From: a virus
UHGV virus genome: UHGV-0027388
Direction: 5' to 3' (one strand)
DNA length: 64,000 nucleotides
The notes below the pieces were generated by a model, which saw nothing but the letters and a program-made list of their open reading frames with translations, did no database searches and was not told the DNA's origin. The position numbers and the translations under genes were made by a program. Shown in pieces: positions 1 to 64,000 of this stretch; the first letter of the stretch is position 1, and every line of letters starts with the position of its first letter.

Positions 1-24
1 GCAGCAGGATAAAATAAAAAACTA

Positions 25-53
25 TTGACTTTCTGCTAGGCAGATGTTATATT
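25..53 (+). promoter_or_regulatory. sigma70-like promoter (TTGACT-17 nt-TATATT) upstream of the RHH/acidic-protein operon
   Basis: TTGACT at 25-30, 17-nt spacer, TATATT at 48-53, about 30 nt before the RBS of the 84..266 CDS. Confidence 0.5.
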
Positions 54-83
54 ATGCCTAGGCGAAAAACTGGAGGTGATTCA

Positions 84-266
84 ATGTCGCCTAAAATGGG
101 ACGGCCTATCATGGGAGATGAGCCAAAGAACAAGCAGATTGCAATGCGAGTAGCGCAAAGCACGGCCGATAAGTTTCAAAAATGCTCTGAACTTTCAGGA
201 AAACCAAAGGTCACTCTGTTTGAAGACATGGTTAACAGCCTATATGAAAAGCTGACGCAAAAATAA
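84..266 (+). CDS. ribbon-helix-helix (CopG/Arc-like) DNA-binding protein, 60 aa
   Basis: ATG at 84 preceded by GGAGGTGA; N-terminal beta strand QIAMRVA followed by two helices; paralogous to the 2594..2770 product (both begin MS..MGRP). Confidence 0.6.
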   Translation: MSPKMGRPIMGDEPKNKQIAMRVAQSTADKFQKCSELSGKPKVTLFEDMVNSLYEKLTQK

Positions 267-389
267 AAATCTCTGCGCTGTTACTTCTTGACGGTCGTAC
301 AGCACAGAGATTCGCCAAAGAGGTTACTCATTGGTAAATCTATTATACCATGCGGTTTGGCCTCTTACAAGTAGAAATGAGGTTTTACT

Positions 390-665
390 ATGACTATCCG
401 TAAAAGCATGAAAGAATTCCATAATGACCACTGCGACAACATCTACTGGCTGACGTTCTGCGGCGAGAAAATGTCCGAGCTGATGCGGGACAGCAAGTAC
501 GGAGACCGGGCGGCAAAGCCGGATGACATCGACGATACCGAGATCATGGGAGCGTGGTTCAACTGGGCATTCTCATTTATCGGCGATGAGATTATGAAAG
601 TTGAGGAAAACGTTGATTACCTGCCGGACGTTCAGATTGAGGAATCTAGCGATATTGCGGAGTAA
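390..665 (+). CDS. acidic ~90-aa protein of the MTIRKSM family (unknown function), copy 1
   Basis: ORF with RBS GAGG; net charge about -14; conserved MTIRKSM(K/R)(D/E)(F/Y)xN(D/E)H N-terminus and WxWAFxFIxDE motif shared with 2192..2470, 58936..59208, 25252..25530 and the fragment at 3179..3241. Confidence 0.7.
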   Translation: MTIRKSMKEFHNDHCDNIYWLTFCGEKMSELMRDSKYGDRAAKPDDIDDTEIMGAWFNWAFSFIGDEIMKVEENVDYLPDVQIEESSDIAE

Positions 666-667
666 AG

Positions 668-702
668 TAATAACCCCCTCGATTTCGAGGGGGTTATTAC
701 TT
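668..702. terminator. bidirectional rho-independent terminator hairpin (AATAACCCCCTCG-loop-CGAGGGGGTTATT)
   Basis: perfect 13-bp stem directly after the stop of the 390..665 gene and directly after the last tRNA of the minus-strand cluster. Confidence 0.7.
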
Positions 703-777
703 TGGCAGCGATGGCTGGATTCAAACCAGCGATGGAGGAGTCAAAGTCCCCTGCCTTAATCACTTGGCTACACCGCT
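702..777 (-). tRNA. tRNA-Gln (anticodon UUG)
   Basis: cloverleaf with A1-U72, G73, anticodon loop CTTTGAC, T loop GGTTTGAATCC, encoded CCA. Confidence 0.8.
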
Positions 778-967
778 AAATAGTATTAGCCGCCTCCCTG
801 GATTCGCAGAAGCGGCTAATACGTCTCACTAGAGCTGGACTTCTGGTGATCCACCCAGAAACGCTAATTATGCGCATGAATCAGCTGTCCAGCAAAGGCG
901 GGTCATGGTCATTGCACCCATGCGCAACCCTTGTACTTCGAGCTGCCCACTAACGCCCCGCATATGA
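778..967 (-). other. unassigned 190-nt structured spacer inside the tRNA operon
   Basis: no ORF; several long hairpins (GCGGGGCG...CCCGC, TTAGCCGC...GCGGCTAA, TTCTGGGTG...CACCAGAA); does not fold as a tRNA. Confidence 0.3.
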
Positions 968-1044
968 TGGTGGACCTTGTAGGTCTCGAACCTACGACCG
1001 TGCGGTTATGAGCCGCGTGCTCTAACCAACTGAGCTAAAGGTCC
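968..1044 (-). tRNA. tRNA-Ile2/Met (anticodon CAU); the GGACCTTTAGCTCAGTTGGTTAGAGC 5' half is typical of lysidine tRNA-Ile
   Basis: perfect acceptor stem GGACCTT/AAGGTCC, anticodon loop CTCATAA, TTCGAGT T loop, CCA encoded. Confidence 0.8.
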
Positions 1045-1141
1045 GCATTAAACCGAGAGGGCGCATCTTGGTTATCTGGTTTTCTCCCAGACCATCTTTC
1101 AGGCGTGCGCCGGTGAGCATTTATTCCGCTCCTCTCCCGGT

Positions 1142-1215
1142 TGGAGCACCAAGCGGGAATCGAACCCGCGCAATCAGCTTGGAAGGCTGATGTTCTGCCA
1201 TTAAACTACTGGTGC
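1142..1215 (-). tRNA. tRNA-Gly (anticodon UCC)
   Basis: acceptor GCACCAG/TTGGTGC, anticodon loop CTTCCAA, U73, TTCGATT T loop, CCA encoded. Confidence 0.8.
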
Positions 1216-1322
1216 AAAATGCCGCCCGAATTGCACGGTCGCCGCCGGAGGTATGTTAAGCGGAGCATTCCATCTAGGCCGAATGCTTATATATGAAAGG
1301 AGATGGTTATGTACGCCATCCG

Positions 1323-1406
1323 TGGTGCCGCTAGTGGGAGTCGAACCCACACGCACAAAGCACAGGAACCTAAATCCTGCACGTCTGCCAATTCCGTCAC
1401 AGCGGC
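1323..1406 (-). tRNA. tRNA-Leu (anticodon UAG), class II with long variable arm
   Basis: GCCGCTG acceptor, D arm GGAATTGGCAGAC, anticodon loop TTTAGGT, long variable arm, A73, CCA. Confidence 0.8.
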
Positions 1407-1424
1407 AAGCCTGAGTTGAGTGTA

Positions 1425-1514
1425 TGGCGGCGCAGGTGGGATTTGAACCCACGCACGGTTTCTCCGTCTAGCGGGTTTCAAATCCGCCCCCTTAAACCAC
1501 TTGGGTACTACGCC
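1425..1514 (-). tRNA. tRNA-Ser (anticodon UGA), class II
   Basis: 3-bp D stem, anticodon loop TTTGAAA, variable-arm hairpin ACGG-AGAAA-CCGT, G73, CCA; one A-C mismatch closing the anticodon stem. Confidence 0.7.
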
Positions 1515-1515
1515 G

Positions 1516-1591
1516 TGGTCGAAGTGGTGAGACTCGAACTCACGACCTCCTGAACCCAAATCAGGAGCGCTACCAACTGCGCTACACCTCG
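1516..1591 (-). tRNA. tRNA-Pro (anticodon UGG)
   Basis: acceptor CGAGGTG/CACTTCG, anticodon stem CCTGA/TCAGG with loop TTTGGGT, A73, CCA. Confidence 0.85.
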
Positions 1592-1609
1592 ATCTATTAT
1601 ATTTCTTTG

Positions 1610-1684
1610 GCGCTATCGGCAAGGACTTGAACCTGCATCCTCCTGAGTACGAATCAGGCGCTCTGCCATTAGAGCTACGACAGC
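1610..1684 (-). tRNA. tRNA-Thr (anticodon CGU)
   Basis: acceptor GCTGTCG/CGATAGC, anticodon stem CCTGA/TCAGG with loop TTCGTAC, CCA encoded. Confidence 0.75.
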
Positions 1685-1822
1685 ATATATAGCGCCGCCG
1701 GAATTGCACCGTGGCTTTCAGCGTTCGCCGGGGAACTTCCCCAACTGGCCGAAAGAGCCTCCCACTTAGGCGATGAAGGCTTATAAATACATGAAAGGAG
1801 AAAGGGCTATCGACCTGCCCTA

Positions 1823-1898
1823 TGGAGCTGGTGGACGGACTTGAACCGCCGACCATCGACTTACAAAGACGCCGCTCTACCAACTGAGCTACACCAGC
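1823..1898 (-). tRNA. tRNA-Thr (anticodon UGU), 76 nt with canonical numbering but two mismatches in the anticodon stem
   Basis: perfect acceptor GCTGGTG/CACCAGC, D arm TAGCTCAGTTGGTAGAGC, loop TTTGTAA, T arm GGCGG-TTCAAGT-CCGTC, CCA. Confidence 0.7.
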
Positions 1899-1975
1899 AG
1901 ATCGACCGCCCCGAACCGAAAGAAACAGAAAAATTCGGAGCGGTCAAATAGGATATGTCCCCCATCCCTGATAAA

Positions 1976-2004
1976 ATTATAGCAACAGGTTTGCGTGGTA
2001 GTAA
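1976..2004 (-). promoter_or_regulatory. candidate promoter of the tRNA operon (TTACTA-17 nt-TATAAT on the minus strand)
   Basis: -10 TATAAT is the reverse complement of 1976-1981 and -35 TTACTA of 1999-2004; about 70 nt upstream of the first tRNA. Confidence 0.4.
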
Positions 2005-2117
2005 CCCCTAAAAAAATTTTCTTGAAAAGGGCTTGATAAGAACGCAGAGCCTGTTAAACTATAGTTGCGCTTGGACGATAGTCTCATGTTTGCCTTCCTC
2101 GCAAGTCTTTATTTCTA

Positions 2118-2160
2118 AAGAAGAAGCAGCACCCGGTGAAAATTCGGGTGCTGCTTCTTT
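2118..2160. terminator. hairpin terminator (AAGAAGCAGCACCCG-loop-CGGGTGCTGCTTCTT)
   Basis: 15-bp perfect inverted repeat 3' of the minus-strand gene 2192..2470. Confidence 0.6.
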
Positions 2161-2191
2161 ATGCTTTCTAACCGCGTCGATTTCGACACAG

Positions 2192-2470
2192 TTACTTTTT
2201 GTATCGCTTCTGCATTTCCTCCACGGTGTCCACTGTCTCTTCCAGCTGGATGTCAGGAAGGTACTCTGTGTTTTCTCCCATTTTCACAACTTCATCCTGG
2301 ATGAACTCGAACGCCCACGCAAAGTAAGTTCCCGCCACCAATGGGTCAATTTCTTGATCTTTGGGGGCATCCCGGAACAGCTCCGCCATCTTCTGAGCGG
2401 ATTCTGCCGTGTGAATGATGTTCTCAAAGTGTTCGTTCTGATAGTCTCTCATGCTCTTACGGATAGTCAT
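2192..2470 (-). CDS. acidic ~90-aa MTIRKSM-family protein, copy 2
   Basis: ATG at 2470 with RBS AAAGGAT; MTIRKSMRDYQNEH...FAWAFEFIQDE; about 45 percent identical to the 390..665 product. Confidence 0.7.
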   Translation of the reverse strand: MTIRKSMRDYQNEHFENIIHTAESAQKMAELFRDAPKDQEIDPLVAGTYFAWAFEFIQDEVVKMGENTEYLPDIQLEETVDTVEEMQKRYKK

Positions 2471-2593
2471 ATTCAAAATCCTTTCTTGCGTCAGGCAAGA
2501 ACTAGTGATATAATAAATTTATCATTAGGCCTTGCCTTTTGGTGTGTATAAGGCTTCGTCCCGTGATTGCTAGTCCAGGGGGCGAAGTCTTAT

Positions 2594-2770
2594 TTACTTT
2601 TCGGTGGACTGTTCAACAAGGTCAATTCCCTTTCTGACAATATCGCTCTTGGAGAGATTCAGCTTTTCAGCGCACCGTTCAAGTTTCTTGCGGTATTCTT
2701 CGTCAAGCCGAACTCTGAGCATCGTGTCTTTAGGGCTGTCGCTCTTTGGACGTCCCATGTTTTGCGACAT
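2594..2770 (-). CDS. ribbon-helix-helix DNA-binding protein, 58 aa (not present in the ORF track)
   Basis: hand translation MSQNMGRPKSDSPKDTMLRVRLDEEYRKKLERCAEKLNLSKSDIVRKGIDLVEQSTEK; RBS GAGGTGA; paralogue of 84..266. Confidence 0.6.
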   Translation of the reverse strand: MSQNMGRPKSDSPKDTMLRVRLDEEYRKKLERCAEKLNLSKSDIVRKGIDLVEQSTEK

Positions 2771-2774
2771 CTAA

Positions 2775-2832
2775 TCACCTCTTTCTGTCGCTACAACAAA
2801 TATATCATTGTAGCTACAACAAGTCAAGAGTT
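2775..2832 (-). promoter_or_regulatory. promoter (TTGACT-17 nt-TATATT) overlapped by TTGTTGTAGC/TACAACAA inverted-repeat operators
   Basis: minus-strand reading TCTTGACTTGTTGTAGCTACAATGATATATTTGTTGTAGCGACAG; same architecture as 3134..3185. Confidence 0.5.
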
Positions 2833-2953
2833 TTTTTATTTTTCCTTGTCTGTGGCGGAACCGCATGGTATAATGGATTTACCAGTTGCACCGCTTCTGG
2901 GGGATAACCGTAAGCTGTTGGTCGTCAGCCTTTACCAGCTTGCGGTTATTTTC

Positions 2954-3127
2954 TTACTTGCTGAGTTCTTCCTCAAGGACACGCCTGAACCACTCTGTGC
3001 GCCCCTCTCCACGTTCTGAGAGTTTTCGGTCGAGAGCGTCAGCCTTGTCCCTGTCTACGAGGAAAACTAATTGCTTCTTAGCTTTCCTCAACTCGCGGAA
3101 GTATTCAGCACGGCTTTTTTCAGCCAC
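2954..3127 (-). CDS. ribbon-helix-helix DNA-binding protein, 57 aa, GTG start (not present in the ORF track)
   Basis: hand translation VAEKSRAEYFRELRKAKKQLVFLVDRDKADALDRKLSERGEGRTEWFRRVLEEELSK; RBS AGGAGGTGA 4 nt upstream of GTG. Confidence 0.5.
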   Translation of the reverse strand: MAEKSRAEYFRELRKAKKQLVFLVDRDKADALDRKLSERGEGRTEWFRRVLEEELSK

Positions 3128-3133
3128 CGGCTC

Positions 3134-3185
3134 ACCTCCTTGTTGCTAACAACAATATACTATGTTGCTAACAACAAGTCAAGAA
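3134..3185 (-). promoter_or_regulatory. promoter (TTGACT-17 nt-TATATT) overlapped by two TTGTTGCTAACAACAA-type palindromic operators
   Basis: plus strand shows ttgttgctaacaacaa twice, then gtcaaga; near-duplicate of the 2775..2832 region. Confidence 0.5.
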
Positions 3186-3241
3186 GTTTCTTTTCGTCGG
3201 CGGTCACAGTGGGGCTGCTTCATGCTTTTACGAATAGTCAT
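3179..3241 (-). pseudogene. 20-codon remnant of an MTIRKSM-family gene (MTIRKSMKQPHCDRRRKETS-stop)
   Basis: retains the family leader AAATGAGGTTTTAAGTATG and first 8 codons, then diverges to a stop; sits divergent from the RHH gene 3485..3826. Confidence 0.5.
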
Positions 3242-3323
3242 ACTTAAAACCTCATTTCTGGTATTTTGGGATTGGACTTCGGAATGAAGCCCCGCTCCCT
3301 TGAACTGCCTTTATTATAGTACT

Positions 3324-3419
3324 TACTAAGTACAACCGCAATCGGCAGAATAAACAATGATTAAGTACAAGTATTGTGCATTATTGTACTTGCCAAGTGC
3401 TGACATTATGCGCTATAAT
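3324..3419 (+). promoter_or_regulatory. operator/promoter region with GTACTT/AAGTAC inverted repeats and TTGCCA-18 nt-TATAAT
   Basis: AGTACTTACTAAGTAC palindrome and AAGTACAAGTATTGTGCATTATTGTACTT, then TATAAT at 3414-3419 upstream of the 3485 CDS. Confidence 0.45.
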
Positions 3420-3484
3420 AAGGACAATGGAAAAGGTATGCTTATATTAGTTTGCTACTTACAGAAACGAAAGGGCGGGATAGC

Positions 3485-3826
3485 ATGGCTGTAACTGAAT
3501 CCAGGAAAAAAGCGAACGCTAAATGGGATGCGGCAAATCTTGATAGGATGTCGCTTGCACTCCACAAAGGAAAGAAAGACGCAATTAAAGCGGCGGCGGC
3601 GCTGGCCGGTGAAAGTATGAACCAGTATATCGGTAATGCAATTGATATGCGCATGGCTGGGGTGGCAGGGAGTGAAGTTACTGCTTCTATTTTGACACCT
3701 GCTGCTCTGTGTGCGGCTCAGACGGGCGCAAAGCTGGCAGGGGAGGAAGTACCCGCCTTTGTGGAAAGGGCTGTTAAAAACGAATCTAAGCGGGATGAAA
3801 TGCAAAGAAAACTGCTTGGTAAATAA
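3485..3826 (+). CDS. Arc/MetJ-type RHH regulator (AGESMNQYIGNAI motif), 113 aa
   Basis: ATG at 3485 with RBS AAAGGGCGGGA; homologous to 25699..25896 and 59379..59567 (HGESVNGFI motif). Confidence 0.6.
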   Translation: MAVTESRKKANAKWDAANLDRMSLALHKGKKDAIKAAAALAGESMNQYIGNAIDMRMAGVAGSEVTASILTPAALCAAQTGAKLAGEEVPAFVERAVKNESKRDEMQRKLLGK

Positions 3827-4202: not shown

Positions 4203-4472
4203 TTATGGAATATATTTACAGAATTTCATGCGCCACGTTCTGGTTGTTATTTCCTCTCTGTGCTTGCGCTGCCATTCTTCTGAAACCTGCTTGAAAGTTA
4301 TTATTTTTGGCTGAATTGCCTTGTTTAACTTCGTGTAAAGGCGTTCGGGATCGCGGTCATAAACATACCTCCGTTGACCGTTTCCGCCCAGATAAGAGCC
4401 TTGATAGCGACCGTCTTTTTGCAGTGTAAACATCGACGCGAAATCCAAAGTTTTCTCTTGTTCTTTGCCCAT
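4203..4472 (-). pseudogene. N-terminal fragment of a tyrosine integrase (AP2-like arm-binding domain), truncated at 90 aa
   Basis: product ...LQKDGRYQGSYLGGNGQRRYVYDRDPERLYTKLNKAI...ITFKQVSEEWQRKH resembles integrase N-termini (compare the intact integrase at 6012..7082) but stops before the catalytic domain. Confidence 0.5.
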
Positions 4473-4965
4473 GATGTTACCTCCCCGTAACAAGCGTTTC
4501 TGTTTCTTACGGCGTCAGTTTATCATGCGCAGTTTGAAAGTCAATGAACCATCCTGCCCAACAGGCCAGACTGTAAAACGGCGTAGAATGCGTTCTGAGC
4601 GGTTTTTATCTGCCGTTGATTAGTTTTGCACCTACGCACCTAAAAATCGCTTTACGGTCGTTCTGTGGCTTCTGATGGCATTTTGGAAGTGTTCCCTGTG
4701 TGTGCAGGTGCGTATATGCGTGTGTGAGCGCGTGTGATGCCCGGTGTGCCGTTTTCAGAGCTTCAACGGGAAATTACATTCCGCAAGTTCAAAACGCCTT
4801 CTTAGCCGCTCTGTGACTGTTAGAGGGCAACTGATTGATTTGCGCCGAGATTGTATTTTTTTCTTTCCTGATTTCGCAGAATTCCGTCCCACCCGCCGTG
4901 TACGCGCACGCGCATCAAGTCTCTGCATATCTTATAAATATATATTATATATATACTAGACTTGT

Positions 4966-5218
4966 AAGTCTTATTTTCTATTTAGACTCTCTATATATGC
5001 TAGTCTCTACTCCTAATCCTGTAGGTCTTATCTTCTATTTAAGCTCTCTATATATGCTAGTCTGTACTCCTAATCCTGATAGTCTTATTTTCTAACGTAA
5101 ATCTGTACTATCTGTAGGTTTGTACTTCTACCGTACTAAACCTGGAAGTCTTTACTTCTAACTAAGTACTCAAAAAAATAAAAAACTGCATCAATAAACT
5201 TGCAAGTCAGTATTTCTA
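4966..5218. repeat. six direct copies of a 15-bp motif aRGTCTTAtTTTCTA, including a 57-bp tandem duplication; candidate integrase arm-type sites
   Basis: copies at 4966, 5024, 5080, 5116, 5147 and 5205; two near-identical 57-bp units (4985-5041 and 5042-5098). Confidence 0.6.
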
Positions 5219-5596
5219 CCGTTAATACGCTGATAGTTATAGCTTTTACTCTTACCGACTATGCTTATAACTTTCCTAAACTTAGAGTTCAAGCCGCTAC
5301 ACAGTATTGCCATTTACTACCATAAATATTCCTTTGATTTTACAATTTTATGCGTCTACGGCAGATTTGTTACGGAGTTGACACTTTTTGTCAAGGTTGA
5401 CAAATATTTTCCTACTCGGTAGTTAATTACTATTATTATAAAATCCGACGATTTTCGCCTCTTGGTGCATGATACGCCTTTGCCGTGCACCAAACAACAC
5501 CGCAAATCAGTTTACCATCATAAGGAGGAACGCAAATGAAAGAGAAGCGAAATAAGTTAGGCCTGACACAAGAGCAGGTCGACAGGGTGTGATCGT

Positions 5597-6011: not shown

Positions 6012-7082
6012 TTATGGCGTAGCAGAATCGTAGCATCTCTCCAAAATGGAGCACAAATCGTCCCGTTTGGCTTTGTAGAGATGGGAGTAAACACGGAGTG
6101 TTACAGTCACATTTTCGTGGCCTAAACGCTCTGCTATGAGCAGTGGCTGCACCCCCTGGTCTATCAGCATCGACGCGTGAGAATGTCGGAGATCATGCAC
6201 CCTGATGATCGGCACACCTGCCTTAACGCAGTTGCGCTTGCAGTGGTTGCGGAGCATAGACGCGCTTGTACCCTCGAATAGCCTACCGCCTGACATTGTG
6301 GCGATAAGCGGGGCTAATTCCTCCTGCAAAAAGTGTGGGATTGATACAACTCTGACGGAGCTTGCAGTTTTAGGCACTCCGATAATTTCTTCTCCGTTCA
6401 GCTTTATGTAGGTTTTGGTAATGGATATTTTACCGTCGCTCACATCCTCTGGTGCAAGCGCCAGCAACTCGCCCTCACGCATACCCGTCCAAAACAATGT
6501 GTCGAAAGCAATCTTCATAAGCTCGTTTTGCTCACAAGAACGGAATTTGGCATACTCCTGCACGGTCAGAAATTTCATTTCTCGCTTTTTTTCATTTCTC
6601 TTTTCGGCGACTGCGTTTGTGCATGGATTTGACGGCAGTCCATATAACCGGACAGCAAAGTTAAAAATGCTCGATAACCTCGATTTCAACATAGCGGTCG
6701 TCGTTTGAGATAGTTTCCCTCCGGTTATGCGCGATTTCCGGTTTTGCAGATCGCTATACCACTTGCGTACAGCCAGTGGCGTGACGTCTTGCACTGCGGT
6801 TTTTCCAAACGCTGGGCGCAAACTCTTTTCGACCGCGAATTCAATCGACGAGTATGTCGTCGGCTTCACCCTTGTTTTTGCGTCCTCTAGATATAGGTCA
6901 AGCAGCGACGACATGGACATAGATAGACTTCCATTCATCTTTTGCAAAAATTCACGCTCGTACTGCTGGGCTTCTCGTTTTGTTGGAAATCCCTCTTTTT
7001 TCTTTTGTTTTCGCGTCCCATCAAATGTAGTATATCTACAGGTCACCTTCCAGCGCCCGTCCGGCATTTTCGATACGCTCAT
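6012..7082 (-). CDS. int: tyrosine site-specific integrase (phage integrase)
   Basis: AP2-like N-terminal domain plus C-terminal catalytic motifs R...HDLRHSHAS...LGH...Y. Confidence 0.9.
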   Translation of the reverse strand: MSVSKMPDGRWKVTCRYTTFDGTRKQKKKEGFPTKREAQQYEREFLQKMNGSLSMSMSSLLDLYLEDAKTRVKPTTYSSIEFAVEKSLRPAFGKTAVQDVTPLAVRKWYSDLQNRKSRITGGKLSQTTTAMLKSRLSSIFNFAVRLYGLPSNPCTNAVAEKRNEKKREMKFLTVQEYAKFRSCEQNELMKIAFDTLFWTGMREGELLALAPEDVSDGKISITKTYIKLNGEEIIGVPKTASSVRVVSIPHFLQEELAPLIATMSGGRLFEGTSASMLRNHCKRNCVKAGVPIIRVHDLRHSHASMLIDQGVQPLLIAERLGHENVTVTLRVYSHLYKAKRDDLCSILERCYDSATP

Positions 7083-25189: not shown

Positions 25190-25251
25190 AGACAACCGAA
25201 CGATAAAAAATGAGTGGCGCTCAAAACTGAGCGCCACTCATTATGCTTCTG

Positions 25252-25530
25252 TCACGCATTGCTCTCCGGTTTCTCGACAGATGCCGCGCAAAGTTTGCTC
25301 ACTGCATCTAACACTTCGTCAACGCCCGGCATTTCGGTCAGATCAAGCGTCTCCTCGTACAGATCACGCGCCTCCTTATGGATGAACTCACTCGCCCAGT
25401 AGAAGAACTGGCTGTATTCCTCGGAATCTACCTCAGTTCCGATTTTGAGTTGGAAGTTCATGAAATCTGCGACCTGCTTTGCGCCATAGGCTACCTGACG
25501 GATGTTTTCAATCTTGGTATTCTTGTTCAT
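25252..25530 (-). CDS. divergent member of the acidic MTIRKSM/WxWAxxFI family
   Basis: QFFYWASEFIHKE aligns with AWFNWAFSFIGDE; RBS AAGGAGGA; divergent from the RHH gene. Confidence 0.55.
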   Translation of the reverse strand: MNKNTKIENIRQVAYGAKQVADFMNFQLKIGTEVDSEEYSQFFYWASEFIHKEARDLYEETLDLTEMPGVDEVLDAVSKLCAASVEKPESNA

Positions 25531-25621
25531 AGTAAAATCCTCCTTAAAGTATGTGTGGCTTACTGGGATGTCCTTATTCTAATATAATGGGGACAATATA
25601 TCAATTGCCGACTTACACAAA

Positions 25622-25665
25622 TATTGTACCCAATATATGTGTAAAGTGACTATTGTACCCAATAT
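25622..25665. promoter_or_regulatory. two 14-bp direct repeats ATTGTACCCAATAT (operators), the second overlapping the -35 of the RHH gene promoter
   Basis: repeats at 25622 and 25652; TTGTAC-17 nt-TATAAT (25676-25681). Confidence 0.55.
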
Positions 25666-25698
25666 GCGAATGAGATATAATGCAAAAGGGGTGATGCA

Positions 25699-25896
25699 AT
25701 GTCAGCAACTAAAGCACAGCAAAAGGCTGTTGCAAAGTATACTAAAGCAAATTATGACGAAATTAAGATTCGCACAGCAAAAGGCCAGAAAGCAGTAATC
25801 AAAGCCCACGCAGAAGCGCACGGAGAAAGCGTCAACGGTTTTATAGGCCGCGCAATCAATGAGACGATTGACAGAGACAACGCCGAAAGCAGATAA
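25699..25896 (+). CDS. Arc/MetJ-type RHH regulator (HGESVNGFI motif)
   Basis: 65 aa; RBS AAGGGGTGA; homologous to 59379..59567 and 3485..3826. Confidence 0.65.
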   Translation: MSATKAQQKAVAKYTKANYDEIKIRTAKGQKAVIKAHAEAHGESVNGFIGRAINETIDRDNAESR

Positions 25897-31296: not shown

Positions 31297-31408
31297 ACAC
31301 TATTCCACTCCGCAAACGGGCAGAGTGAAGAGCCAAACGGGGCTGAATTTGTACAATTTTCGTACAGGTTCAGCCCCGTTTTTATATCCCGGAAAAGGAG
31401 GTGAAAGC

Positions 31409-58894: not shown

Positions 58895-58900
58895 TCAAAG

Positions 58901-58937
58901 AGAAAGACCGCCCATCTGGGCGGTCTTTCTCTCTCTC
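58901..58937. terminator. terminator hairpin AGAAAGACCGCCCA-loop-TGGGCGGTCTTTCT
   Basis: perfect inverted repeat after the endolysin stop. Confidence 0.65.
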
Positions 58938-59208
58938 AAGAGTGGGCTTCCGTGGCTTCCTTCATGCTTGCGTCAGATGCACAGTCGTTGTTCTCAGCCA
59001 GCTTCGCCGTCTCATCCTGAATGAACCCGAATGCCCAGCTGAAATAAGCTCCCATAACGTCCGTGTCACTGGCGAACTCCGAAACTTCCGACTTGTCGCA
59101 TCTGCTATCGCACATCAGTTCTGCCAGCTTCTGTGCGCTAAATGCCGTCCAGTAGATGTTGTCGCAATGGTCGTTCCTGAAATCTCTCATGCTTTTTCTG
59201 ATTGTCAT
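58936..59208 (-). CDS. acidic MTIRKSM-family protein
   Basis: MTIRKSMRDFRNDHCDNIYW...YFSWAFGFIQDE; RBS AAGGAGGA. Confidence 0.7.
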   Translation of the reverse strand: MTIRKSMRDFRNDHCDNIYWTAFSAQKLAELMCDSRCDKSEVSEFASDTDVMGAYFSWAFGFIQDETAKLAENNDCASDASMKEATEAHS

Positions 59209-59259
59209 AATAAATCCTCCTTGAATGTGTTGGTTTATCGGTATGCCATTATTATAGCA

Positions 59260-59345
59260 TGGTTACGCAATTATGCAATCATCAGTTCTTACAACTTCGC
59301 ACCACTCTATTTGTGCATTTCGCATAATTGCGCAATAATGCGAAC
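59260..59345. promoter_or_regulatory. operator region with GCAATTATGC/GCATAATTGC inverted copies
   Basis: cgcaattatgcaatc ... cgcataattgcgcaataatgcg between the divergent genes. Confidence 0.45.
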
Positions 59346-59378
59346 TATAATATAATTGCTGTGATAGGGGGTGATTGC

Positions 59379-59567
59379 TTGGGCGGAAAAACAAGTGCAG
59401 CCAGCAAGAATAAATGGATTGCAAAAACCTATGACCGCATCAACCTGACTGTACCAAAGGGGAAGAAGGCCGAAATTCAAGCGTTCGCCGCGAACAGGGG
59501 AGAGAGCGTGAATGGCTTTATCAATCGTGTCATTGATGAAACAATGGAGCGGGATGATGGCCAATGA
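59379..59567 (+). CDS. Arc/MetJ-type RHH regulator (TTG start)
   Basis: GGGGTGAT-TGC-TTG mirrors the AAGGGGTGATGCAATG start of 25699; KGKKAEIQAFAANRGESVNGFINRVIDE. Confidence 0.55.
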   Translation: MGGKTSAASKNKWIAKTYDRINLTVPKGKKAEIQAFAANRGESVNGFINRVIDETMERDDGQ

Positions 59568-59677: not shown

Positions 59678-60760
59678 TTATGCATCCCCCAAGCGCAATT
59701 GCGCATCTTGTTCCTCCACAATTCGAGCAAGCATCTGTTCGTTTCGCTTTGCTTGCTTGTCTCGCGCATCCATGACGCGCTGGGCGGACTCTCTGGCTCT
59801 CCGTGGCATAAGACGCCCAGAATAAATTTGCGTCGTTTTCGGGCTTGAGTGGCCCAATTTAGCCTGTAATTCCTCCATGCGCATACCTGAGTTTAAGTCC
59901 ACTCTTGCGCATATGTGCCGCAAATCGTGAGAGCGTATGCCTTCTACGCCCACAACGTTTCTGACGTGCCGCTCAATCAGCGCCGAAAGCCATTGAGACG
60001 TGCCCCTTTTCCATGTGACTTCGCTCGTTTCCGTGCCGCTCAGTCGTTTTGGTTCCCCGGTGGTGCCAAACAAATAATCCGTGTCGCTCAACGAATCCGG
60101 GCGGAGTCCACTTGCAAGATACAACTCTAACGCTGTTTTCGCAATCTGCGGCAAGTCTACGACTCTGAATTTGTTCCCCTTTCCGCTCCTGACTGTCACC
60201 TCGTTATAGTCAAAGTCAATGTCAGAAAGCCGCAAATCCAGAACTTCCGCATTTCTGAGACCGGTCGCCATGATGAAAACCACAATCGCATAATTGCGCG
60301 GCCAGTAGCGCAAATGGCTCTGATCGATATGTTCCCGGTTCATATAGAGAGCTGCAATCTCATCATCAGTCAGGAGTATGTCGTATGGCTTTTCACTTTC
60401 CTTCGGCATATCAGGGATTAGAGAGCTTGGAACTGGGTTTTGCTTATAGTACACATTGCCTTTCCCACGCGCCTTATCTGATGCCCACTTGAAAAATGTG
60501 TGCAGCTCGATTAGGTACAGCCTCGCGGTGACAACGGAGGTAGACGCTATAAGCTCATCTCTCCATTCCTGAGCCACAACGAAGCACGGCCCCTTCCTGC
60601 GTCTTGCCGGGTCATCCAGCATGAAATTATAGAAGTAGCCGAGAGTTTTACGGTAGCAGTCCACGGTTTTAGCCGACCTTCCGACAGCTTGGCAGTTCCG
60701 CAAATACTGATCTGTGGCTTCTTCATATACAGCCATCTTAGACTTCATAAACCTGAACAC
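59678..60760 (-). CDS. tyrosine recombinase/integrase (XerD-like)
   Basis: R...HDLRH...LGH...Y catalytic motifs and N-terminal core-binding domain. Confidence 0.9.
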   Translation of the reverse strand: MFRFMKSKMAVYEEATDQYLRNCQAVGRSAKTVDCYRKTLGYFYNFMLDDPARRRKGPCFVVAQEWRDELIASTSVVTARLYLIELHTFFKWASDKARGKGNVYYKQNPVPSSLIPDMPKESEKPYDILLTDDEIAALYMNREHIDQSHLRYWPRNYAIVVFIMATGLRNAEVLDLRLSDIDFDYNEVTVRSGKGNKFRVVDLPQIAKTALELYLASGLRPDSLSDTDYLFGTTGEPKRLSGTETSEVTWKRGTSQWLSALIERHVRNVVGVEGIRSHDLRHICARVDLNSGMRMEELQAKLGHSSPKTTQIYSGRLMPRRARESAQRVMDARDKQAKRNEQMLARIVEEQDAQLRLGDA

Positions 60761-60832: not shown

Positions 60833-61420
60833 TCACTCGACTTGCCACGGGTCAAGTTTGCTCCTATCAATAGAGGCACCATCCAACTTCGCGCCGGAGA
60901 AATCCACTCCGCCGAGATCAACGGCCATAAGGTCCGCACCGGACATATCAGCTCCAATCATCTTAGCTTGCGACAGGTGCGCACCAGAAAAATCAGCATC
61001 GTGTGCCGAGACAGAACTAAAATCCGCATTTGGAGCAAACGCCTTAGAGAAATTGCACCCATCCAGTTTAGCGCCACGGAAAGAAGCACCGTATGCGCGC
61101 ACACCTGAGAAATCCGCATGAGACAAATCCGCATCAACAAAATTTGCCTCGTCAACACTCGCCCCAGCGAAACACGCGCCGCTCAAATCGCAAGCCCAGA
61201 ACCTAGCGTAATCGCCCATTTTCAAACCAGAGAAATCAGCACCCTTGCAAACGGTCTGACTGAAATCAACTCCGGCCAAGAATGGCACATATAGATCACT
61301 GTGCGCAAAATCCACATCGGAGAAATCTGCACGAATGCCGTTCTTTCCGTTGCTGTTTACCCAGTCACGATGCAGCGCCAGAGCATCATCGAGTTCGTCC
61401 ATCGTAATAGTCTTTTTCAT
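60833..61420 (-). CDS. pentapeptide-repeat protein (Qnr/MfpA-like architecture, 195 aa)
   Basis: tandem A(D/N)FSGA.L pentapeptide units throughout; RBS GGAGGG before ATG 61420. Confidence 0.8.
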   Translation of the reverse strand: MKKTITMDELDDALALHRDWVNSNGKNGIRADFSDVDFAHSDLYVPFLAGVDFSQTVCKGADFSGLKMGDYARFWACDLSGACFAGASVDEANFVDADLSHADFSGVRAYGASFRGAKLDGCNFSKAFAPNADFSSVSAHDADFSGAHLSQAKMIGADMSGADLMAVDLGGVDFSGAKLDGASIDRSKLDPWQVE

Positions 61421-61446
61421 AGTTATTCCCTCCAAAGGCGCGGATT

Positions 61447-61740
61447 TCAATTAGTTCTTTCTGCTCCGTCTTCCGCTACCACATATCTTTCCGTTACTTC
61501 ATCCAGTTTCAGGACAACATCCGGATTTCCCCTGATTCGCGCTTTGAGTTTCCGCAACTGCGCATACGCTTCTCTTTCGTAATCATCTATTTCTTTTTCG
61601 GAGTATTCGCTGTGGAGGATGCCGTAGCCAATGTTATCCTCAATAATGGCTTCTTCGTGCTTTTTGACATCCCTGTACGGTACTTTGCCAATGCTTCCAT
61701 CGCTATTTAAGACTGATATGTATTCTGGGTATGCGTTCAT
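61447..61740 (-). CDS. hypothetical protein (97 aa)
   Basis: RBS GGGGGT 7 nt before ATG 61740. Confidence 0.45.
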   Translation of the reverse strand: MNAYPEYISVLNSDGSIGKVPYRDVKKHEEAIIEDNIGYGILHSEYSEKEIDDYEREAYAQLRKLKARIRGNPDVVLKLDEVTERYVVAEDGAERTN

Positions 61741-62086: not shown

Positions 62087-62225
62087 TTTGCCCCTCACTT
62101 CCGCCTTCGCAAATAGCCCTTTCTTTTATTGCCTTTATAGATTTTATCACGCGCAGACGCCAATTTCCACACATTTCGCTTTCCCGCATCTTTTGGCTTC
62201 GCTGTTCTGCGCCGTACTTCACAAG

Positions 62226-62435
62226 TCATTTCACGATGTACAGCCTCGGAGTCTCAGCTGCCCGTTTCCGGGCGTTCTGCTGTTTCGCGTGTCTCTGCGC
62301 ATCCCGCATCATCGACCGATACAGCCGCACCAGAAGGAGCAAAACAGCCTCCTTCACGGCGTAGCAGATACCAGCCAAAACCATCCCCAAAGCACTCAGA
62401 CCAAGAATCAGGCCGATAGAAACAGAGTAACTCAT
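62226..62435 (-). CDS. small membrane protein (70 aa)
   Basis: AAGGAGGGG RBS; one long hydrophobic helix. Confidence 0.45.
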   Translation of the reverse strand: MSYSVSIGLILGLSALGMVLAGICYAVKEAVLLLLVRLYRSMMRDAQRHAKQQNARKRAAETPRLYIVK

Positions 62436-62521
62436 ATTTTGCCCCTCCTTAAAGGTACTTTTAAATTTTCTGTGCGCCTCAGTCAATCACAGATTATCAG
62501 GTTAATTACAGAATTTTGTTT

Positions 62522-63145
62522 TTATTTGCTGGAATATGCCGATAGTTCCACGAAATCGGAGAACACAGGGGTTGAAACGTCTCCGAAAATGACAAGTGCC
62601 CGCTTGCGCTGGCGGTCATAAACCGCTGCATATGGCCATTCTTCCGAATATCTCCGCGCATCAGCTATTGCATCGTTCAGCCTGTTAAAGTCCATCATTT
62701 CGTCGCTTCCGCAATCATTCGCCCACACGACTACTTGATAACGCGGCGCTTTCGGTTTTACATCGTCGTAACAGTCCGGCTCCTCTAGAGTCGGCTCCGC
62801 ACTGATAAGCTCGTAGTACTCCCACATTCTATCTTTATCGCTGACTTTCTCCATCTTCTCGCGCAGAACAGAGATACAGTTAAAAGCCGTTTTCTGTGCG
62901 TCCTCTCTGGTTTTGCCCTTCGTGAAGCAAATGCCGATACCAGGAACAATGACGAACCACGCATTCCCTTTGATTTTGTAATAGCGGAAAACTCCGTCAG
63001 TCCAGCCGCTCACCTCGTTTGCGCTCAGTTCCCCGTTGTGGCTCCGCATCGTGTAAAAGTCGCACTTGCGGAATCTTCCGGGCGCCCTGTAAAGCGTCCC
63101 AAGAATTTCCTGTCTCGCCTGTTCAATTTTATCGTGATCCATCAT
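62522..63145 (-). CDS. hypothetical protein
   Basis: ORF. Confidence 0.45.
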   Translation of the reverse strand: MMDHDKIEQARQEILGTLYRAPGRFRKCDFYTMRSHNGELSANEVSGWTDGVFRYYKIKGNAWFVIVPGIGICFTKGKTREDAQKTAFNCISVLREKMEKVSDKDRMWEYYELISAEPTLEEPDCYDDVKPKAPRYQVVVWANDCGSDEMMDFNRLNDAIADARRYSEEWPYAAVYDRQRKRALVIFGDVSTPVFSDFVELSAYSSK

Positions 63146-63276
63146 CTGAAATTCCTCCCGAACTTTTGCGCTGCGCTGTTTTGTGCTGCGCTCCCGGACT
63201 TTTTGAAGTCCCCTGTAAACTCCTGTACGCCTCAGCGGTTCCGGCTTGTTTCCTGTGAGCCTCGGCGGGCGGCCTT

Positions 63277-63870
63277 TTAGGCCGCTCCGCTCCTCCAGCG
63301 CCGGAACACTTCTAGCGCCTTTTGTTCGTTGCGTTTATAAAGGATTTGCAGGAAGAAAGCCGCCGCCGCTCGTCCCTCCTCGGTTTTCGGGTCCTCCAGC
63401 ATTACGGCCTCGGCTAGTGCATCATCTGGCAGCATTTCGGCCGCGTCTGTAATGTCCTGGATTTCTTGTTTTTTGCGCTCGATGGCCTCCAACACCCACG
63501 GCGCAAAAGTGACATTGACCACTTCGGCGGGCTTGGCTTCGGTGGCGCTGTCCTCCGGTAGGTTATAGCCGTTTGCGGCGTACTCCTCCACAGTCAAACC
63601 GGCAGCGCTTGCCTCGTCGGCGATCTCGTGCCGGACCTTATCGGCATAAACGGACATTTCCAGCAGTTCCGCGACGTGCTCAATTTTTGCGGCTTGATCG
63701 TCGTTCCCGTCTTTCCGGGACCACTCCGCGAAATAACGAATATGCGCAATTAACCCGCCGTCGTTGTCGCCCAAGTCATAGCGGCCTTCATAGGTGCATT
63801 CTTCCCCGCCCTCGTCATAAATGACGCAAAAGGACGTTTTCCAATAGCCGCCATTCTCGGCGGCTTTCAT
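63277..63870 (-). CDS. hypothetical acidic protein
   Basis: ORF. Confidence 0.45.
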   Translation of the reverse strand: MKAAENGGYWKTSFCVIYDEGGEECTYEGRYDLGDNDGGLIAHIRYFAEWSRKDGNDDQAAKIEHVAELLEMSVYADKVRHEIADEASAAGLTVEEYAANGYNLPEDSATEAKPAEVVNVTFAPWVLEAIERKKQEIQDITDAAEMLPDDALAEAVMLEDPKTEEGRAAAAFFLQILYKRNEQKALEVFRRWRSGAA

Positions 63871-64000
63871 CTCGTCGAAATGCCTAAAGATGATTTCAGC
63901 GGCAGCAGGGGAAAGCTCAAGCTCTCCATCTTTCCACGCATAAAAAGCGCCATATTCCGACCAATTAACCCGGATTACAGGCTCACCGCTGTTCTGCGGG

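What the first reader, a model, noticed from the sequence alone, without database searches (positions are those of the whole stretch)
84..3826. Five-member family of acidic ~90-aa proteins, each paired with a small RHH regulator
Intact copies lie at 390..665, 2192..2470, 58936..59208 and the divergent 25252..25530; a 20-codon remnant lies at 3179..3241.
- All share an MTIRKSM-type N-terminus, a Trp/Phe-rich W-x-WA-x-FI-x-DE core and a net charge near -14. I do not recognise the family.
- Every copy is coupled to a ribbon-helix-helix gene. Two are co-directional operons (RHH first) that flank the tRNA cluster and point into it. Three are divergent pairs with an Arc/MetJ-type RHH and repeat operators between the genes.
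- Copies occur both inside the prophage and in the flanking hotspot.

Small, strongly acidic proteins under a dedicated autoregulator resemble DNA-mimic anti-restriction or anti-defence proteins with their regulators. A toxin-antitoxin-like addiction module is an alternative.
Basis: partly seen in the sequence, partly recalled or inferred. Interest (0 to 1): 0.75.

Follow-up and report, generated by a model that had tools for sequence, protein, structure and literature searches.

The report
Repressor- and antisense-RNA-gated acidic phage proteins
A gut phage carries four copies of a small acidic protein found almost nowhere else, each kept off by small repressor genes and, at two copies, a previously unnoticed antisense RNA, the same control cassette that other gut phages use to hold back their anti-repressor genes.

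Summary
The family is real: four intact genes (390-665, 2192-2470, 25252-25530, 58936-59208) plus a 20-codon remnant, all next to ribbon-helix-helix (RHH) genes. Two details are wrong. Net charge is -13, -9, -8 and -9, not about -14. The "flanking hotspot" lies inside the same phage genome.

The family is confined to one gut-phage lineage and matches no known family. It models as a two-helix hairpin with an acidic disordered tail.

Each is a self-contained cassette: an operator-bearing promoter, a 57-60 aa RHH, and a convergent structured antisense RNA of about 80 nt. That RNA has a perfect extended -10 and a covarying terminator hairpin. The cassettes stack and recur in about 48 other viral contigs. 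There the downstream gene is most often a Bro-N/ANT anti-repressor.

The layout parallels P22 immI (mnt, arc, sar, ant), with the acidic proteins in the ant position. I read them as tightly gated, protein-binding antagonists. An anti-repressor role is most likely and an anti-defence role next. A toxin-antitoxin module is contradicted. Function is inferred, not shown.

The parts
25..83 (+). Promoter of RHH gene R1 (TTGACT-17-TATATT) with two palindromic operator copies (33-43 CTGCTAGGCAG; 55-65)
84..266 (+). R1, a 60-aa ribbon-helix-helix repressor and the first gene of the R1-A1 unit
   Evidence: phrog_876 at E 1e-7; pI 9.5
258..370 (-). Predicted antisense sRNA as-1 (RNA about 335->258) with its promoter TTGTAA-17-TGgTATAAT at 370..342
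   Evidence: Promoter scan. Fold z = -5.9, with a 5' stem-loop, a 15-bp terminator and a U-run. Covariance model 82 bits.
390..665 (+). A1, acidic family copy (91 aa, net -13)
668..700 (.). Bidirectional terminator hairpin between A1 and the tRNA cluster
703..1898 (-). Cluster of eight tRNA genes between the convergent A1 and A2. Related contig L007 lacks the cluster, so it is an insert and not part of the module.
2120..2160 (.). 17-bp terminator hairpin downstream of A2
2192..2470 (-). A2, acidic family copy (92 aa, net -9)
2486..2602 (+). Predicted antisense sRNA as-2 (RNA about 2521-2602) with its promoter TTGCGT-17-TGaTATAAT (-10 at 2509-2514)
   Evidence: z = -6.6; E 3e-4
2594..2770 (-). 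R2, a 58-aa RHH repressor directly upstream of A2
   Evidence: phrog_876 at E 2e-16; Pfam RHH_1
2771..2827 (-). Promoter of R2 (TTGACT-17-TATATT) with the palindromic operator TTGTAGCTACAA (2808-2819) and a second near-copy
2846..2962 (+). Predicted antisense sRNA as-3 (RNA about 2881-2962) with its promoter TTGTCT-17-TGgTATAAT at 2846-2874
   Evidence: (z = -4.6)
2954..3127 (-). R3, a 57-aa RHH-like repressor in a cassette stacked upstream of R2
   Evidence: phrog_3896 at E 3e-14; weak RHH_1
3128..3182 (-). Promoter of R3 (TTGACT-17-TATATT) with two copies of the palindrome TGTTGTTAGCAACA (3141-3154, 3163-3176)
3179..3241 (-). 20-codon N-terminal remnant of an acidic gene, cut off at the left end of the R3 cassette
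   Evidence: The same remnant-then-cassette junction is seen in L001, L008 and L010.
3242..3484 (.). Divergent control region with GTAC-type palindromes (for example 3319-3333), a -10 for the leftward unit and the Arc1 promoter at 3390-3419
3485..3826 (+). Arc1, an Arc-like RHH with a C-terminal extension, divergent from the remnant-R3-R2-A2 string (Mnt-like position)
   Evidence: phrog_13890 at E 1.5e-16
25252..25530 (-). A4, the divergent acidic family copy (92 aa, net -9), between the dUTPase and packaging genes, with a terminator hairpin at about 25210-25242
25531..25698 (.). A4/Arc2 control region with two direct copies of ATATTGGGTACAATA (25622-25636, 25651-25665)
25699..25896 (+). Arc2, a 65-aa Arc-like RHH divergent from A4
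   Evidence: phrog_13890 at E 2.5e-16
58936..59208 (-). A3, acidic family copy (90 aa, net -8), convergent with the amidase gene, with a shared terminator hairpin at about 58900-58932
59209..59378 (.). A3/Arc3 control region: inverted repeats GCAATTATGC (59267-59278, 59320-59331), a TGcTATAAT -10 for A3 and a TATAAT for Arc3
59379..59567 (+). Arc3, a 62-aa Arc-like RHH (TTG start) divergent from A3
   Evidence: phrog_13890 at E 3e-22; start placed by comparison with L001 and L007

Best explanation
The acidic proteins are the regulated payload of immI-like accessory modules in a temperate gut phage.

Shown or strongly predicted from sequence:
- Each co-directional unit is a self-contained cassette. 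A consensus promoter carries two copies of a cassette-specific palindromic operator.
- The promoter drives a minimal RHH autorepressor of 57-60 aa.
- Directly after the RHH stop codon lies a convergent gene for a structured antisense RNA of about 80 nt. It has an extended -10 promoter, a 5' stem-loop and a terminator hairpin with a U-run.
- This RNA is complementary to the RHH-payload intercistronic leader.
- Cassettes can be stacked two or three deep.
- A second Arc-like RHH can sit divergently, in the position Mnt occupies in P22.
- Each acidic gene ends in its own terminator and points against the flow of lytic transcription.

Inferred:
- Expression is limited to a burst on entry or induction, before RHH and antisense RNA accumulate. 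Otherwise it is held at a low homeostatic level.
- The 90-aa products are antiparallel helical hairpins with an acidic flexible tail. They act stoichiometrically by binding and neutralising another protein.
- Because the same cassette gates Bro-N/ANT anti-repressors in other gut phages, and this phage has no such gene, the most likely target is a repressor or other DNA-binding immunity protein. That would make the family a small anti-repressor or anti-immunity factor.
- The four diverged paralogues would then have different targets.
For: Family and protein
- The family is real and under purifying selection.
- It is confined to one phage lineage: 3 clusters among 1.84 billion representatives, none in 185,579 species genomes, and two IMG/VR contigs, one found by the protein scan and a second (L037) by the leader-pattern scan.
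- The model shows two helices (7-37, 50-73) and a disordered acidic tail, mean pLDDT 78.

Cassette anatomy
- Sense promoters and operators are present, and each operator is local to its own cassette.
- The promoter scan calls two of the three antisense promoters independently.
- TATAATRRATTT occurs exactly three times in the window, all at cassettes.
- All eight sRNAs tested fold as a 5' stem-loop plus terminator, with z = -3.7 to -6.6.
- 35 of 35 genuine cassettes show this architecture.
- On a model-fitted alignment, 93.9% of cells pair against 64% in shuffles. All 14 pairs carry compensatory changes. The covariation score is 0.73, against 0.25 in shuffles and 0.06-0.15 in slid controls.
- About 15% of paired cells are G-U (my tally from the per-pair table), and those are valid only on the antisense strand.

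Guilt by regulator
- The leader pattern finds 53 IMG/VR contigs, about 48 of them genuine.
- The downstream gene is a Bro-N or Bro-N+ANT protein in 23 of them (phrog_130 'anti-repressor Ant', E 1e-40 to 1e-45).
- In at least five contigs from three payload types the order is cassette, then a small acidic 73-84 aa protein, then Ant.
- The window has no Bro-N, ANT or Rha homologue.
- P22 immI consists of mnt, arc, the sar antisense RNA and ant (PMC2629481).
Against: - There is no homology to any anti-repressor, and no target has been identified.
- The same cassette also precedes small basic proteins followed by HNH-like genes. The slot is therefore not specific to anti-repressors.
- Many of the 23 Ant-type payloads come from one abundant lineage, so the number of independent associations is small (at least three).
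- Unlike sar, the predicted RNA does not cover the payload's ribosome-binding site. A thermodynamic test of an SD-occlusion switch was inconclusive: SD pairing probability was 0.30-0.62 free against 0.42-0.67 bound.
- No expression data exist for the sRNA.
- Four paralogues of one anti-repressor in a single genome would be unusual.
- Negative autoregulation could equally give steady expression in lysogens.
Confidence: 0.4

Rival explanations
1. The acidic proteins are anti-defence proteins, inhibitors of restriction-modification, CRISPR or another host system. They would be made in a burst on entry and then shut off by RHH regulators acting like Aca proteins.
For: - The acidic proteins are small, fast-diverging and lineage-specific.
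- RHH operators overlap the promoters.
- RHH-type Aca14 represses anti-defence operons.
- The neighbourhood holds a pentapeptide-repeat protein, an LPD25-domain protein and a tRNA cluster. Relatives carry Lar-like and methyltransferase genes.
Against: - Gene order is RHH first or divergent, not acr followed by aca.
- No antisense-RNA layer was mentioned in the one Aca paper read here.
- Charge is moderate and lies mainly on flexible segments, so there is no DNA-mimic-like surface.
- The only annotated payloads of the same cassette are anti-repressors.
- No library of known anti-defence proteins was available to search.
Confidence: 0.25
2. The acidic proteins are prophage-expressed morons. Negative autoregulation holds them at a steady low level in lysogens, where they modify the host or exclude superinfecting phages.
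For: - Each gene is a stand-alone unit with its own promoter and terminator, and is oriented against lytic transcription.
- The copies sit at classic moron sites: lysis-integrase, and early-late junction.
- Autorepressed operons give homeostatic expression (established knowledge of RHH autoregulators).
Against: - There is no membrane segment or signal peptide of the kind seen in many exclusion proteins; this comes from reading the sequences, no predictor was run.
- Three layers of repression (RHH, divergent Arc, antisense RNA) suggest the product must normally be kept off.
Confidence: 0.15
3. Each acidic protein antagonises its own neighbouring RHH repressor, binding the basic DNA-binding face in the manner of AbbA on AbrB or SinI on SinR, to form a local feedback switch.
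For: - An acidic protein (pI 4.3-4.6) always lies next to a basic RHH (pI 9.3-9.6).
- A helical-hairpin fold suits protein-protein binding.
Against: - RHH type is not tied to acidic subtype. The A4 type pairs with Arc-like, phrog_876-like or R3-like RHHs in different phages.
- The identical P0002 occurs with and without a co-directional RHH.
- The same RHH cassettes serve unrelated payloads.
Confidence: 0.07
4. The pairs are type II toxin-antitoxin addiction modules, with the RHH as antitoxin and the acidic protein as toxin.
For: RHH-first, autoregulated two-gene units resemble toxin-antitoxin operons. Weak sub-threshold hits link the RHHs to antitoxin families.
Against: - The RHHs are 57-60 aa with no toxin-binding tail.
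- A 123-nt intercistronic gap holds an sRNA gene.
- The acidic gene occurs without an RHH, and RHH cassettes occur without an acidic gene.
- There is no toxin-family or PADLOC hit.
- An acidic helical hairpin is unlike the known toxins that pair with RHH antitoxins (ParE, RelE, VapC, Doc, from my own knowledge).
Confidence: 0.03

Closest known systems
Immunity I (immI) region / 'ant moron' of Salmonella phage P22: mnt, arc, sar RNA, ant
   Same: - An RHH autorepressor is the first gene of the operon.
- A second RHH repressor is transcribed divergently.
- A small convergent antisense RNA is encoded between the RHH gene and the payload.
- The region is a high-flux accessory ('moron') site (PMC2629481).
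- In other gut phages the same cassette does carry Bro-N/ANT anti-repressor homologues.
   Different: - There is no sequence homology of the payload to Ant.
- The RHH cassettes are stackable (up to three).
- The antisense RNA covers the RHH 3' end and the leader, not the payload's ribosome-binding site.
- The host group appears different: the nearest cultured relatives of the large terminase are phages of Firmicutes, and the closest match comes from human faeces.
- There are four paralogous payloads per genome.
pMV158-type copy control: copG (RHH), antisense RNAII, repB
   Same: An RHH autorepressor first, then a short convergent antisense RNA in the intercistronic region, then the controlled gene. 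The dual repressor-plus-antisense control occurs in Firmicutes elements (from my own knowledge, not tested here).
   Different: The payload is a 90-aa acidic hairpin, not a replication initiator. The setting is a phage accessory region. RNAII targets the repB translation start.
acr-aca anti-defence operons, in particular RHH-type Aca14
   Same: A small autorepressor binds inverted repeats that overlap the promoter of a small, fast-evolving payload gene, and can control neighbouring operons.
   Different: Gene order is reversed or divergent. There is an added antisense-RNA layer. No known Acr or Aca homology has been shown.
P1 immI: c4 antisense RNA, icd, ant1/2
   Same: An antisense RNA gates an operon in which a small ORF precedes the anti-repressor. 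This resembles the order cassette, small acidic protein, Ant seen in L019, L029, L034 and L063. The P1 details come from my own knowledge.
   Different: P1 has no RHH repressor. In the window no Ant gene follows the acidic genes.

Membership tests
P22 immI-type anti-repressor control module | An RHH autorepressor as first gene, with its operator at its own promoter | tested here: met
   R1, R2 and R3 each follow TTGACT-17-TATATT with two palindrome copies found nowhere else in the window. Binding itself was not tested.
P22 immI-type anti-repressor control module | A second RHH repressor transcribed divergently (Mnt-like) | tested here: met
   Arc1 at 3485-3826 is divergent from remnant-R3-R2-A2. 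Arc2 and Arc3 are divergent from A4 and A3.
P22 immI-type anti-repressor control module | A small convergent antisense RNA between the RHH gene and the payload | tested here: met
   Predicted only. Supporting evidence is the extended -10 promoters, folds at z -3.7 to -6.6, 35/35 cassettes with the architecture and covariation of 14/14 pairs. There are no expression data.
P22 immI-type anti-repressor control module | The antisense RNA overlaps the payload's ribosome-binding site | tested here: not met
   The predicted start lies about 57 nt upstream of the payload ATG and the RNA runs away from it. The SD-occlusion test was inconclusive.
P22 immI-type anti-repressor control module | The payload is homologous to Ant (AntA/ANT/Bro-N) | tested here: not met
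   The acidic family has no Pfam or PHROG hit, and the window has no Bro-N/ANT/Rha match. The feature is met for the same cassette in 23 other contigs.
P22 immI-type anti-repressor control module | The payload inactivates a phage repressor | not testable with these tools
   This needs induction or immunity assays and binding studies.
Type II toxin-antitoxin module with an RHH antitoxin | The antitoxin has a DNA-binding domain plus a toxin-neutralising extension | tested here: not met
   R1, R2 and R3 are 57-60 aa, and the RHH domain fills the protein.
Type II toxin-antitoxin module with an RHH antitoxin | The two genes are obligately paired | tested here: not met
   P0002 occurs with an RHH (L001) and without one (L004). 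RHH cassettes occur alone or with other payloads.
Type II toxin-antitoxin module with an RHH antitoxin | The toxin belongs to a known toxin superfamily | tested here: not met
   There are no Pfam, NCBIfam, PADLOC or PDB sequence hits.
DNA-mimic anti-restriction proteins (Ocr, ArdA, gp5.9 type) | Sequence or fold similarity to a known DNA mimic | tested here: not met
DNA-mimic anti-restriction proteins (Ocr, ArdA, gp5.9 type) | A rigid surface array of carboxylates imitating a DNA backbone | tested here: inconclusive
   Net charge is -8 to -13. Acidic residues concentrate in the loop (38-49) and the disordered tail (74-91). Only a monomer model was made, so the oligomeric state is unknown.
acr-aca operon | An autorepressor binds inverted repeats in the promoter of the payload operon | tested here: met
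   Palindromes overlap the -35/-10 elements. This rests on sequence only.
acr-aca operon | The payload lies upstream of the regulator in one operon | tested here: not met
   The RHH is upstream or divergent at every copy.
acr-aca operon | The payload inhibits CRISPR-Cas or matches a known Acr | not tested
   No Acr or anti-defence library was available among the tools.
WXG100 / Esx helical hairpins | A WXG motif in the hairpin turn and a Pfam WXG100 match | tested here: not met
   The tryptophans lie within helix 2 and there is no Pfam hit. Foldseek matches have E above 2.

The most novel reading that the evidence does not exclude
Gut Firmicutes phages use a stackable control cassette: an RHH autorepressor plus a structured antisense sRNA that matched no family in Rfam release 15. 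It works as a plug-in gate for switch effectors. The acidic hairpin family is a new class of small anti-repressor or anti-immunity protein that has replaced the canonical Bro-N/ANT protein in this lineage. It has diversified into four paralogues, each with its own operator specificity and possibly its own repressor target.
Probability: 0.25. Interest if true: 0.7.

Novelty: new variant of a known kind. Interest (0 to 1): 0.55.

Why it matters
If the reading holds, three things follow.
- It gives a Gram-positive, gut-phage counterpart of the P22 immI paradigm, including an antisense RNA family not yet catalogued.
- It shows that these RHH-sRNA cassettes are modular, stackable parts that move between payloads.
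- It offers a 'guilt-by-regulator' handle for finding small switch or anti-immunity proteins in uncultured gut phages, much as Aca genes are used to find anti-CRISPRs. The leader pattern found about 48 viral contigs and at least five unannotated small payload families.

The acidic family itself is narrow and its function is unproven, so the value lies more in the regulatory module than in the protein.

Tried and rejected
PROTEIN SEARCHES
- Pfam, PHROGs, NCBIfam and PADLOC gave no family for the acidic proteins.
- The PDB sequence profile gave nothing.
- The exhaustive profile search found no distant relatives, and the scan of species genomes found none, so no host could be named. The closest large terminase is 61% identical and comes from a human-faecal phage.
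- The family profile does not match the other small payloads of the same cassette.

RNA TESTS
- I proposed a three-element leader switch in which the antisense RNA frees an anti-SD sequence to occlude the SD. Pairing probabilities barely change, so I do not claim it.
- A MAFFT plus RNAalifold run on 18 sRNAs gave no structure because the unrelated stems were misaligned. I solved this with a covariance model built from 5 sequences and a model-fitted alignment. That alignment leans towards the structure.
- No Rfam family covers the sRNA.

OTHER IDEAS DROPPED
- Site-specific inversion at the conserved MTIRKSM start codons: the breakpoints against L001 are at 332 and 2428, not at those sites.
- A functional link between the acidic genes and the tRNA cluster: L007 has the convergent gene pair without any tRNAs.
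- A near-copy of the R2 operator at 11197-11208 is within chance expectation.
- An alignment-based locus search with the Arc-like proteins failed, so a single sequence was used instead.

Full report
OBSERVATION

- A1 is 390-665 (+), A2 is 2192-2470 (-), A3 is 58936-59208 (-) and A4 is 25252-25530 (-).
- A1, A2 and A3 are 46-49% identical to each other. A4 is 22% identical to A1.
- A profile built from 30 family members hits all four at E 1e-33 to 1e-41. Intermediate and chimeric relatives such as P0012 and P0013 bridge the two subtypes.
- The remnant at 3241..3179 reads MTIRKSMKQPHCDRRRKETS* and shares the upstream ribosome-binding region with A1.
- Between paralogues the synonymous sites are saturated and dN/dS is 0.12-0.16. 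Close orthologues give about 0.6. These are old, constrained coding genes.

Two details in the finding need correcting.
- Net charge is -13, -9, -8 and -9, with pI 4.3-4.6. That is the most acidic 0-5% of this phage's proteins, but 16% of them have pI below 4.6.
- The copies outside the 'prophage' are not in a host hotspot. In contigs of 62.5-64 kb recovered from several samples, window 64000..62129 and window 332..2428 lie about 4 kb apart. They sit in a single accessory region bounded by the amidase on one side and the integrase and lysogeny genes on the other. The window is therefore a circularly permuted, nearly complete phage genome.

THE PROTEIN

- No Pfam, PHROG, NCBIfam, PADLOC or PDB sequence match exists.
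- An exhaustive profile search of 1.84 billion cluster representatives returned only three clusters, all from this lineage.
- The scan of 185,579 species genomes found none, and the IMG/VR protein scan found one contig. A second IMG/VR contig, L037, carries an A4-type copy and was found only by the leader-pattern scan.
- AlphaFold2 (mean pLDDT 78) gives two long helices, 7-37 and 50-73, and a disordered tail, 74-91.
- The invariant residues N17, I18, A22, A25, A29, F57, W59, A60, F63 and I64 fit a helix-helix core.
- The acidic residues lie mostly in the loop and the tail.
- The fold suggests a protein-binding module and nothing more specific. It does not look like a rigid DNA mimic.

THE REGULATORS

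All six neighbouring small genes are RHH-type.
- R1 (84-266) and R2 (2594-2770) match phrog_876.
- R3 (2954-3127) matches phrog_3896.
- Arc1 (3485-3826), Arc2 (25699-25896) and Arc3 (59379-59567) match phrog_13890.
- R1, R2 and R3 each follow a TTGACT-17-TATATT promoter. Each promoter carries two copies of a palindrome unique to that cassette.
- The divergent pairs have their own repeats.
- Each acidic gene ends at a terminator hairpin and faces its neighbour convergently.

A convergent small-RNA gene follows every co-directional RHH gene.
- About 75-80 nt past the RHH stop codon lies a conserved element whose reverse complement is a perfect extended -10, TGnTATAAT. It has a TTGNNN -35 at 17 nt.
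- The promoter scan calls two of the three independently.
- The 12-mer TATAATRRATTT occurs exactly three times in 64 kb, all at cassettes.
- Directly after the RHH stop codon is a hairpin of 8-17 bp. It is preceded by an A-run on the sense strand, which makes it an intrinsic terminator only for the antisense direction.
- The predicted RNAs are about 75-85 nt. All fold as a 5' stem-loop plus terminator plus U-run, with z = -3.7 to -6.6 in 8 of 8 tested.
- Of 38 distinct sequences picked by the promoter motif alone, 35 show this architecture. The other 3 are chance matches.
- A covariance model built from five sequences recovered diverged copies.
- On the resulting alignment 93.9% of cells pair, against 64% in shuffles (0/500). 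All 14 pairs carry compensatory changes. The covariation score is 0.73, against 0.25 in shuffles and 0.06-0.15 when partners are slid.
- That alignment is fitted to the model, which inflates pairing somewhat.
- About 15% of paired cells are G-U. These would be A-C mismatches on the sense strand, so the antisense strand is the one under selection.
- No Rfam family matches.
- How the RNA acts is open. It covers the RHH 3' end and the leader, not the payload's SD. My SD-occlusion model failed a thermodynamic test. Transcriptional interference between the convergent promoters, or duplex-directed processing, remain possible.

MODULARITY

- Cassettes stack: R3 then R2 before A2 in the window, two or three in L001, L008 and L010, and three in L019.
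- N-terminal remnants of the acidic gene precede cassettes in four phages. Each is cut off exactly at the A-rich left end of the next promoter. This points to recombination at cassette boundaries.
- RHH type is not tied to acidic subtype.
- The identical protein P0002 is found with a co-directional RHH in L001. In L004 it has only the sRNA module and a divergent Arc-like gene.
- These facts, and the lack of any C-terminal extension on the RHHs, argue against a toxin-antitoxin pair or any obligate protein partnership.

GUILT BY REGULATOR

- A scan of IMG/VR with the leader pattern found 53 contigs, about 48 of them genuine.
- Upstream is always a 56-59 aa RHH of the R1/R2 or R3 type.
- Downstream is a Bro-N or Bro-N+ANT protein in 23 contigs. 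These hit Pfam Bro-N and ANT, and phrog_130 'anti-repressor Ant' at E 1e-40 to 1e-45.
- Other downstream genes are another cassette, the acidic family (L037), or unannotated small proteins.
- In L019, L029, L034, L040, L060 and L063 the order is cassette, small acidic 73-84 aa protein, Ant. L040 and L060 have the same payload as L029 and L063; the downstream Ant gene was read in L019, L029, L034 and L063 only.
- In other contigs small basic proteins precede HNH-like or Rha-like genes.
- The Arc-like regulator family is also widespread, with 116 loci. Its divergent partners are diverse and often small and acidic, and some are Ant- or Rha-type.
- The window phage has no Bro-N, ANT or Rha homologue.

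INTERPRETATION

- The regulatory anatomy matches P22 immI: mnt, arc, the sar antisense RNA and ant (PMC2629481). It also resembles CopG-RNAII-RepB control (my own knowledge).
- The acidic proteins sit in the ant slot.
- I therefore read them as tightly gated, stoichiometric protein antagonists. An anti-repressor or anti-immunity role is most likely (0.4 for the whole statement).
- An anti-defence inhibitor under Aca14-like control is next (0.25).
- A lysogen-expressed moron follows (0.15), then antagonism of the protein's own RHH (0.07), then toxin-antitoxin (0.03).
- The regulatory layer is well supported by sequence. The effector function is inference only.

VERDICT

This is a real, very narrow orphan family embedded in a more general and more interesting control module. 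It is a new variant of a known kind. I score interest as moderate at 0.55.

Noticed in passing
window 7547-7648 (-) and ORF 7093-7512 (-): Two tandem matches to the Rfam 6A RNA motif (57 and 43 bits) lie directly upstream of a 139-aa ORF with no family hit, next to the integrase. A repeat RNA followed by a protein recalls type III toxin-antitoxin loci.
   Followed up: partly
window 31303-31350 (+): There is a match to the Rfam gut-2 RNA motif (42 bits, just above the gathering score) in the structural gene region.
   Followed up: no
window 332-2428 versus L001 9947-12025: The block A1, tRNA cluster, A2 is in the opposite orientation relative to its flanks in related contigs. The breakpoints lie in the A1 leader and 42 nt into A2, whose relative P0010 has a replaced N-terminus.
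   Followed up: partly
window 1-53 and 62129-64000; L001 12025-16295: The two window ends lie about 4 kb apart in related contigs, separated there by a class V aminotransferase gene. The LPD25-domain ORF at 63277-63870 runs towards the window edge. The window looks like a permuted, near-complete phage genome.
   Followed up: partly
window 60833-61450 (-): A 205-aa pentapeptide-repeat protein (Pfam E 1e-40) sits in the accessory region beside the second integrase. This fold is known elsewhere as a DNA mimic, as in Qnr and MfpA (my own knowledge).
   Followed up: no
window 4203-4493 (-), 6012-7082 (-), 59678-60760 (-): There are two full tyrosine-recombinase-like genes by reading of the translations (Pfam Phage_integrase is on record only for the L001 counterparts), plus a 96-aa fragment that may be a third. 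The fragment lies in DNA (4229-5589) that aligns to the region around the integrase in L001.
   Followed up: no
P0012, P0013; L005 9634-9876: Some family members are chimeras, with an A4-type N-terminus and an A3-type C-terminus. One is frameshifted or truncated at the A3 position in a related phage. The family undergoes recombination and decay.
   Followed up: partly
L015 7052-11088: The lineage with the most abundant Bro-N payload carries the cassette next to genes that read like Rep and ParA (identified from the translations, no domain search run). These roughly 58-kb elements may be phage-plasmids.
   Followed up: no
window 11197-11208: A one-mismatch palindromic near-copy of the R2 operator (TTGTAACTACAA) lies directly before the HTH gene 11209-11478 in the lysogeny switch region. 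This is within chance expectation by my estimate.
   Followed up: no
L012, L018, L021, L029, L034, L038 and others: At least five unannotated small payload families occupy the slot behind the same cassette: 67/112 aa and 73 aa basic proteins, and 73/79 aa (L034, L019), 77-82 aa and 84 aa acidic proteins. The three sets compared with the acidic-family profile showed no similarity; the 84-aa protein gave no reported hit and the 73/79-aa protein was not included.
   Followed up: partly
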